DNA of 64,000 nt, from NCBI RefSeq assembly GCF_048403405.1, contig NZ_CP183129.1. The stretch is one strand, 5' to 3'. Position numbers and translations under genes: made by a program. Numbering within the stretch: position 1 is the stretch's first letter; each line of letters opens with the position of its first letter. This DNA is from Escherichia coli (lineage in GTDB: Bacteria; Pseudomonadota; Gammaproteobacteria; Enterobacterales; Enterobacteriaceae). The notes beneath the pieces are model-generated. The model was not told the DNA's origin, made no database searches, and saw only the letters and a list, made by a program, of their open reading frames with translations. Positions 12,597 to 26,053 of this stretch are shown one piece after another.

Positions 12597-12673
12597 TGGC
12601 GGAACGGACGGGACTCGAACCCGCGACCCCCTGCGTGACAGGCAGGTATTCTAACCGACTGAACTACCGCTCC
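12597..12673 (-). tRNA. aspV: tRNA-Asp (GTC)
   Basis: Reverse complement reads GGAGCGGTAGTTCAGTCGGTTAGAATACCTGCCTGTCACGCAGGGGGTCGCGGGTTCGAGTCCCGTCCGTTCCGCCA. Confidence 0.97.
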
Positions 12674-14069: not shown

Positions 14070-14791
14070 GCCTGTGGTTTACGACATTGCCGGGTGGCTC
14101 CAACCGCCTGGCGAATTCGTGGCTTGTTTTTACTCTGTTTCATCGGATTTAGCGTTAAAGGAATAGTCCGTTTCCGGGCGACAATAAGTTGTAAGCAACC
14201 AAGCGCAGGAATATGCGCATTCAATAGTTTTCCACCGTGTTTGTTCCACGGGAGAACGTGGAAACGGCTGGCGTGTAGCACTTCAAAATTCAACAAAGAG
14301 AGCCAGTCCAGCTGCCGCATCAGAGTAAACATCCGGCTATTATAGGGCGAGGTTTTGCGCAATACCGGCACAAGTTTTCGTAATCCCATTAAACTGATGG
14401 GATTGAAGCCACTAATCACCAGCCAGCCATCATCAATCAATACCCGATCGGCTTCACGCAATAAACGATGCGGATCGGTGCACCATGGCAATGTATGTGC
14501 CAGTAGACAAACATCAACGGATTTATCGGCAAAAGGAAGATGAAGTGGGTCCGCCTGCACCTGGACGGGCAGTCCTTGCGCAGAAACATTCACTTGATGA
14601 GAAACCGCGCACGCTTCGCAATTGATTTCTGCGCTTAAATTGCCAATCTTAAGCAGATGAAAACCATACATTTTAGTGAACCACGGGTTGAGCTGGCGCT
14701 CCAGCGCCTTGCGATAAAGCTCTCCCCAGGGCAAATCGCCCCAGCAATCAGGAGCCACGACAGTTTGAGGGACTCTTGCCGGTTTCATCAC
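14066..14791 (-). CDS. yafS: SAM-dependent methyltransferase YafS
   Basis: ~240-aa ORF at the position of yafS; first codon may be one Met downstream. Confidence 0.8.
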
Positions 14792-17902: not shown

Positions 17903-18754
<852 letters not shown>

Positions 18755-20820: not shown

Positions 20821-20897
20821 TGGCGGAACGGACGGGACTCGAACCCGCGACCCCCTGCGTGACAGGCAGGTATTCTAACCGACTGAACTACCGCTCC
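20821..20897 (-). tRNA. aspU: tRNA-Asp (GTC), distal tRNA of rrnH
   Basis: Same sequence as aspV, located just downstream of the 5S gene. Confidence 0.97.
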
Positions 20898-20949: not shown

Positions 20950-21069
20950 ATGCCTGGCAGTTCCCTACTCTCGCATGGGGAGACCCCACACTACCATCGG
21001 CGCTACGGCGTTTCACTTCTGAGTTCGGCATGGGGTCAGGTGGGACCACCGCGCTAAGGCCGCCAGGCA
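20950..21069 (-). rRNA. rrfH: 5S ribosomal RNA
   Basis: Reverse complement matches E. coli 5S rRNA (TGCCTGGCGGCC...GGGAACTGCCAGGCAT). Confidence 0.95.
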
Positions 21070-21163
21070 AATTCTGTTTTATTAACCCGCTTACCGCCGG
21101 TTAATTTAATCTGTATCAGGCTGAAAATCTTTCTCTCATCCGCCAAAACATCTTCGGCGTTGT

Positions 21164-24065
<2,902 letters not shown>

Positions 24066-24248
24066 TCACAACCCGAAGATGTTTCTTTCGATTCATCATC
24101 GTGTTGCGAAAATTTGAGAGACTCACGAACAACTTTCGTTGTTCAGTGTTTCAATTTTCAGCTTGATCCAGATTTTTAAAGAGCAAAACTTCGCAGTGAA
24201 CCTTTGCAGGTACACTCTGAAGTATTTTTTATTTAATCACTACAGAGA

Positions 24249-24324
24249 TGGTGGAGCTATGCGGGATCGAACCGCAGACCTCCTGCGTGCAAAGCAGGCG
24301 CTCTCCCAGCTGAGCTATAGCCCC
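24249..24324 (-). tRNA. alaV: tRNA-Ala (TGC), spacer tRNA
   Basis: Reverse complement reads GGGGCTATAGCTCAGCTGGGAGAGCGCCTGCTTTGCACGCAGGAGGTCTGCGGTTCGATCCCGCATAGCTCCACCA. Confidence 0.97.
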
Positions 24325-24366
24325 ATAACATGTAGTTAAAACCTCTTCAAATTTGCGGTGCAAATT

Positions 24367-24443
<77 letters not shown>

Positions 24444-24511: not shown

Positions 24512-26053
<1,542 letters not shown>

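What the first reader, a model, noticed from the sequence alone, without database searches (positions are those of the whole stretch)
21051..21060. Possible single-base variant in helix I of the 5S rRNA gene
The 5S gene reads GGCCTTAGCGCGG near its 5' end where I recall the canonical E. coli sequence as GGCCGTAGCGCGG (position 21057 on the plus strand). This could be a known rrfH allele, natural heterogeneity among operons, or a sequencing error; it is reported with low confidence because the reference is from memory.
Basis: partly seen in the sequence, partly recalled or inferred. Interest (0 to 1): 0.15.

Follow-up and report, generated by a model that had tools for sequence, protein, structure and literature searches.

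The report
Common U13 allele of 5S rRNA
The single-base difference from the K-12 5S ribosomal RNA is real, but it is an ordinary natural allele (U instead of G at an unpaired position) that is in fact the most common 5S version among sequenced E. coli genomes.

Summary
The 5S rRNA gene of the rrnH operon (minus strand, mature RNA 21069 down to 20950) has U at RNA position 13 (window 21057), where all eight 5S genes of E. coli K-12 MG1655, rrfH included, have G. It is the only difference from K-12 rrfH in 120 nt.

It is not an error or a rarity. Six independent complete E. coli assemblies are 100% identical over the 401 bases around it. In one of them (MS 69-1), six of eight 5S genes carry U13. 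Across 5,426 complete E. coli genomes, the U13 form occurs about 18,700 times in 4,164 genomes (77%). The K-12-like C12-G13 form occurs about 14,200 times in 4,291 genomes. O157:H7 and 55989 carry U13 at rrfH; a B strain and CFT073 carry it at rrfD.

It is unpaired in the Rfam consensus structure. In K-12, G13 is one of the two most glyoxal-reactive guanines in vivo.

The best reading is a tolerated polymorphism at an exposed, unpaired nucleotide, probably spread among operons by gene conversion. Already known in kind; low interest.

The parts
20950..21069 (-). 5S rRNA gene of the rrnH operon (mature 120-nt RNA, U1 = 21069, U120 = 20950)
   Evidence: Rfam RF00001 at 20952-21067, 93.2 bits, model 1-120. 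119 of 120 nt identical to K-12 rrfH.
21057..21057 (-). RNA position 13: U here, G in all eight K-12 copies; unpaired, in loop A
   Evidence: Marked as junction in the Rfam structure line. On that structure the computed energy is -23.5 kcal/mol for any base at position 13.
21070..21163 (-). 23S-5S spacer (5' part of the 5S precursor), a non-K-12 allele
   Evidence: Alignment with all K-12 operons. Folds like the K-12 spacer.
21081..21105 (-). Spacer hairpin AUUAACCGGCGGUAAGCGGGUUAAU, whose stem differs on both sides from the K-12 hairpin AUCAGAACGCAGAAGCGGUCUGAU
   Evidence: This spacer type is found in 734 of 5,426 genomes, 215 of them exact.
20821..20897 (-). tRNA-Asp (GUC), the distal tRNA of rrnH (aspU)
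   Evidence: ARAGORN. Identical to K-12 aspU in the alignment. dkgB follows it in MS 69-1 and K-12.
21164..24065 (-). 23S rRNA gene of the same operon
   Evidence: Rfam RF02541, 2877 bits. Differs from K-12 rrlH at 18 alignment columns.
24249..24443 (-). Spacer tRNA-Ala (UGC) and tRNA-Ile (GAU), the ileV-alaV arrangement of rrnH
   Evidence: ARAGORN. Same order as in K-12 rrnH.
24512..26053 (-). 16S rRNA gene with the rrsH-type helix-33 variants
   Evidence: Rfam RF00177. Matches K-12 rrsH and differs from rrsB at the nine positions 1002-1038.

Best explanation
This is a normal, functional 5S rRNA gene (rrfH) carrying the U13 allele, a widespread natural polymorphism of E. coli 5S rRNA. Established knowledge of E. 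coli rRNA maturation says the gene is transcribed as the last rRNA of the rrnH precursor, released by RNase III and RNase E processing, and built into the central protuberance of the 50S subunit. Nucleotide 13 sits in loop A, the three-way junction where helices I, II and V meet. There it is unpaired and its Watson-Crick face is exposed, so G and U are both tolerated. The allele is shared by most 5S copies in this strain's lineage, most likely because gene conversion between rrn operons spreads it (concerted evolution). Shown here: the base, its position in the junction, its presence in independent assemblies, and its frequency. Inferred: functional neutrality and spread by gene conversion.
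For: The gene is full length and scores 93.2 bits against RF00001. G13 to U is the only difference from K-12 rrfH.

Six complete assemblies are 100% identical over the 401 nt around it, and they match the neighbouring 20.8 kb at 99.9-100% identity over 96% of its length.

In MS 69-1, rrfH, C, A, B, E and G have U13. rrfD has G13, and rrfF has A12-G13.

A 30-nt query that can only seed on the exact allele finds C12-U13 at 18,695 places in 4,164 of 5,426 genomes (median 5 per genome). It finds C12-G13 at 14,162 places in 4,291 genomes. There are about 43,300 5S places in all.

U13 occurs at rrfH in O157:H7 PV15-279 and 55989, and at rrfD in a B strain and in CFT073.

Position 13 is marked as junction in the Rfam consensus structure. 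On that structure the energy is the same (-23.5 kcal/mol) for G, U, A or C. G13 is one of the two most glyoxal-reactive guanines of MG1655 5S rRNA in vivo and is placed in loop A (PMC5733565).
Against: No functional data on U13 versus G13 were found or generated, so neutrality is inferred from frequency and structure only.

No per-locus tabulation across all genomes was possible, so the role of gene conversion rests on one fully examined genome and four spot checks.

Among GTDB species representatives, an exact 62-nt match including U13 was found in only three genomes. The allele therefore looks largely confined to E. coli, and its age is unknown.
Confidence: 0.95

Rival explanations
1. Sequencing or assembly error in a repeated rRNA operon, for example a collapsed or mis-polished base.
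For: rRNA operons are repeats and prone to polishing errors. No reads were available to check.
Against: The same base lies in the same locus, with identical flanks, in six independent complete assemblies. It is also at rrfH of O157:H7 and 55989 and in about 18,700 5S copies overall.
Confidence: 0.01
2. Functionally specialised 5S rRNA: U13-bearing ribosomes differ in activity or regulation from G13-bearing ones, by analogy with the rrsH 16S variant of the same operon.
For: The same operon carries the rrsH-type helix-33 16S variants, which one study links to stress-response phenotypes (PMC6312700). Most genomes keep both U13 and G13 copies.
Against: U13 is not tied to rrnH. It sits in six of eight copies in MS 69-1 and at rrfD in B and CFT073 strains. 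K-12 does without it entirely. The position is unpaired and energetically indifferent in the consensus structure. No paper reporting a phenotype was found.
Confidence: 0.03
3. Degenerating or non-functional 5S copy.
For: None beyond the single difference from K-12.
Against: Full-length match to the 5S model, with no other change from K-12 rrfH. The gene sits in an intact operon with intact 16S, 23S and tRNAs. The allele is the commonest in the species.
Confidence: 0.01

Closest known systems
E. coli K-12 MG1655 rrfH (b0205)
   Same: Same locus and operon layout (16S, tRNA-Ile, tRNA-Ala, 23S, 5S, tRNA-Asp, then dkgB). 119 of 120 nt identical. The 5S-aspU spacer and aspU are identical.
   Different: G13 in K-12, U13 here. 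The 23S-5S spacer hairpin has a different sequence.
5S genes of E. coli MS 69-1 (NZ_CP146675.1) and five other complete genomes (TUM14771, GN02461, 4621, TUM1226, OX030728)
   Same: 100% identical over the 401 nt spanning the 23S end, spacer, 5S and aspU. In MS 69-1, U13 is in six of eight copies.
   Different: Nothing in the region compared. These genomes cover only 96% of window 1-20800.
Known 5S microheterogeneity of E. coli
   Same: K-12 operons differ at four 5S positions (PMC6312700). Here these were found to be positions 3, 12, 92 and 117. Position 12, next to the one in question, varies C/A, so loop A is the usual place for such variation. From memory, not verified here: Brownlee, Sanger and Barrell (1967-68) reported a G/U mixture at position 13 in 5S RNA of strain MRE600.
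   Different: U13 itself is absent from K-12. The MRE600 record was not in the collection, and the 1960s papers are not in the searchable library.

Membership tests
Bacterial 5S rRNA (Rfam RF00001) | Score above the curated gathering threshold over the full model | tested here: met
   93.2 bits against a threshold of 38, model positions 1-120, not truncated.
Bacterial 5S rRNA (Rfam RF00001) | Three-way junction architecture: helix I closing loop A, with the helix II-III and helix IV-V arms | tested here: met
   The sequence aligns to the consensus structure with few non-standard pairs. Helix I pairs nt 3-10 with 110-117 and is intact.
Bacterial 5S rRNA (Rfam RF00001) | Location at the 3' end of an rrn operon, downstream of 23S | tested here: met
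   16S, two tRNAs, 23S and 5S are in order on the minus strand, 94 nt after 23S.
Bacterial 5S rRNA (Rfam RF00001) | Incorporation into 50S subunits with L5, L18 and L25 | not testable with these tools
   Needs RNA from ribosomes of this strain.
rrnH operon of E. coli | Ile/Ala spacer tRNAs, distal tRNA-Asp, dkgB downstream | tested here: met
   tRNA-Ile, tRNA-Ala and tRNA-Asp found. Flanks align to K-12 rrnH. dkgB is annotated next to the identical locus in MS 69-1.
rrnH operon of E. coli | rrsH-type helix-33 variants in the 16S gene | tested here: met
   The window matches K-12 rrsH and differs from rrsB at the nine positions 1002-1038.
C12-U13 allele of E. coli 5S rRNA | Exact identity to the allele found in other E. 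coli genomes | tested here: met
   The first 60 nt are exact in 4,115 of 5,463 records. The first 30 nt are exact at 18,695 places. The whole 120 nt equal MS 69-1 rrfH, C, A, B and E, O157:H7 and 55989 rrfH, and B-strain and CFT073 rrfD.

The most novel reading that the evidence does not exclude
E. coli keeps two 5S rRNA species (U13 and G13) side by side in most genomes because ribosomes carrying them differ functionally through loop A contacts in the central protuberance. On this reading the U13/G13 copy ratio would be a selected trait rather than drift plus gene conversion.
Probability: 0.03. Interest if true: 0.4.

Novelty: already known. Interest (0 to 1): 0.04.

Why it matters
It matters little biologically: this is an ordinary allele of a well-known gene. 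The practical lesson is that the K-12 5S sequence is not a species-wide canon. U13 is the most frequent 5S form in complete E. coli genomes, so a difference from K-12 at this position should not be flagged as an error or a mutation in annotation, variant calling or ribosome model building.

Tried and rejected
Thermodynamic folding of the 120-nt RNA with G13, U13 or A12 reproduces only helix I of the accepted 5S structure. It was therefore not used as evidence. The energy of the Rfam consensus structure was evaluated instead.

Literature searches for the historical G/U13 report and for any phenotype of position 13 found no statement about U13. The MRE600 genome paper does not discuss 5S genes, and the MRE600 chromosome accession I tried is not in the collection. 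The link to the 1960s MRE600 data therefore rests on memory.

A scan of one genome per species for the exact 62-nt stretch with U13 found only three records: Escherichia sp. MOD1-EC7003, a Plautia stali symbiont and Trabulsiella odontotermitis. This is uninformative about ancestry, because an exact match was required and many draft genomes lack 5S genes.

A locus-specific population count (U13 at rrfH only) could not be made. The identity bands of the search tool cannot separate one mismatch in a query long enough to reach the unique flank.

Full report
**What is at the coordinates.** Rfam places a full-length 5S rRNA on the minus strand at 20952-21067 (93.2 bits, gathering score 38). It is preceded by 23S (21164-24065), tRNA-Ala, tRNA-Ile and 16S (24512-26053), and followed by tRNA-Asp (20821-20897). 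This is the layout of rrnH, and the flanks align to K-12 rrnH-aspU. The identical locus in strain MS 69-1 is followed by dkgB. Read in the RNA sense, the gene begins TGCCTGGCGGCCTTAGCGCGG.

**Comparison with K-12.** I fetched all eight 5S genes of MG1655 and aligned them. All have G13.
- rrfH, G, D and C read CCGTA at positions 11-15; rrfA, B, E and F read CAGTA.
- rrfA also has C92T, and rrfF has C3T and G117A.
- That makes four variable positions, which agrees with the number given by Kurylo et al. (PMC6312700).

The window's gene differs from K-12 rrfH by G13 to T only.

**Error or allele?** A 401-nt query (23S end to aspU) is 100% identical in six complete E. coli assemblies. The same genomes match the neighbouring 20.8 kb at 99.9-100% identity over 96% of its length. 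I located all seven rrn operons of one of them, MS 69-1, by synteny and extracted the eight 5S genes.
- rrfH, C, A, B, E and G carry U13 (rrfG also has C35T).
- rrfD has G13.
- rrfF has the K-12 rrfF sequence.

U13 is therefore the majority 5S species in this lineage.

**Frequency in the species.** The first 60 nt with U13 are matched exactly in 4,115 of 5,463 records. The C12-G13 version is exact in 4,291 records and the A12-G13 version in 1,414. To count copies, I used 30-nt queries that megablast can seed only on an exact allele.
- C12-U13 gives 18,695 places in 4,164 of 5,426 genomes, median 5 per genome.
- C12-G13 gives 14,162 places in 4,291 genomes, median 3.
- There are about 43,300 5S places in total.

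U13 is thus the commonest single 5S form, at roughly 43% of copies. Spot checks show U13 at rrfH (5S, tRNA-Asp, dkgB) in O157:H7 PV15-279 and in 55989. They also show it at rrfD (5S, tRNA-Thr, 5S) in a B-derived strain and in CFT073. Outside E. coli, an exact 62-nt match including U13 was found in only three species representatives.

**Structural context.** The Rfam structure line pairs RNA nt 3-11 with 109-117 (C11/A109 is non-standard) and marks nt 12-15 as multiloop junction. Published tables place C11, C12 and A15 in loop A and G10 in helix I (PMC1976436). In vivo glyoxal probing of MG1655 finds G13, 'located in Loop A', among the two most reactive guanines (PMC5733565). The position is therefore unpaired and exposed, not part of helix I. 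On the consensus structure the computed energy is -23.5 kcal/mol whichever base is at position 13. Free MFE folding does not recover the accepted 5S fold and was not used.

**Explanation.** This is a functional rrfH gene with a tolerated substitution at an exposed junction nucleotide. The same base appears in six of eight copies of one genome and at different rrn loci in different phylogroups. That pattern is what gene conversion among rrn operons would produce, but this step is inferred, not shown. Rivals:
- Sequencing error is excluded by reproducibility across assemblies.
- A decaying gene is excluded by the single change and the intact operon.
- Specialised ribosomes cannot be excluded but have no support. 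U13 is not specific to rrnH, K-12 lacks it altogether, and no phenotype was found in the literature searched.

**Relation to what is known.** Microheterogeneity of E. coli 5S rRNA is long established. From memory, a G/U mixture at position 13 was described for strain MRE600 in the original 5S sequencing work of Brownlee, Sanger and Barrell. I could not verify this with the tools. The allele is annotated simply as 'rrf: 5S ribosomal RNA' in thousands of RefSeq genomes.

**Verdict.** The finding is already known in kind and of low interest.

Noticed in passing
window 21081-21105 (-), within the 23S-5S spacer 21070-21163: The spacer hairpin just upstream of the 5S 5' end reads AUUAACCGGCGGUAAGCGGGUUAAU. 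All seven K-12 operons have AUCAGAACGCAGAAGCGGUCUGAU. Both fold into a hairpin at the same place, so the stem has changed on both sides. This spacer type occurs in 734 of 5,426 genomes, 215 of them exact. In MS 69-1 it is in rrnH, with a 2-nt variant in rrnA and rrnE; CFT073 rrnD has a related form. It explains why only 28 records matched the 401-nt query at 99% or better.
   Followed up: partly
window 24512-26053 (-), 16S rRNA: The 16S gene carries the nine helix-33 variants (positions 1002-1038) that distinguish K-12 rrsH from rrsB. It lacks the K-12 rrsH difference at position 1120. It has two further changes, A80C and T89G, found in neither K-12 copy. The rrsH variants are the ones discussed by Kurylo et al. 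2018 (PMC6312700).
   Followed up: partly
window 21164-24065 (-), 23S rRNA: The 23S gene is 2,902 nt against 2,904 in K-12. It differs from K-12 rrlH at 18 alignment columns, clustered around positions 541-552, 1171-1230 and 2205-2211. The clusters look like helix-level allele swaps.
   Followed up: no
window 1-20800, including tRNA-Asp at 12597-12673 (-): There is a second tRNA-Asp (the aspV position), and genes annotated in matching genomes as type VI secretion components (tssM, tssH, tssA, VasL-domain protein) plus mltD. The closest genomes are 99.9-100% identical but cover only 96% of this stretch in 2-3 pieces, so about 0.8 kb of the window is absent from them.
   Followed up: no
window 24073-24181 (-), 58856-58965 (-), 59804-59890 (-): Rfam matches to StyR-44 (inside the 16S-23S spacer, just upstream of 23S), CssrA and t44 RNA. 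All are above their gathering scores, and none was examined further.
   Followed up: no
L015 10808-10923 (MS 69-1 rrfG) and L015 11051-12399: MS 69-1 rrfG carries an extra C35T change in addition to U13. An IS3-family transposase is annotated immediately downstream of that 5S gene, between rrnG and kgtP.
   Followed up: no
L017 (E. coli 55989 rrnH end): In 55989 the gap between 5S and tRNA-Asp is 193 nt, against 54 nt in the window, in MS 69-1 and in O157:H7. This suggests an insertion in that spacer.
   Followed up: no
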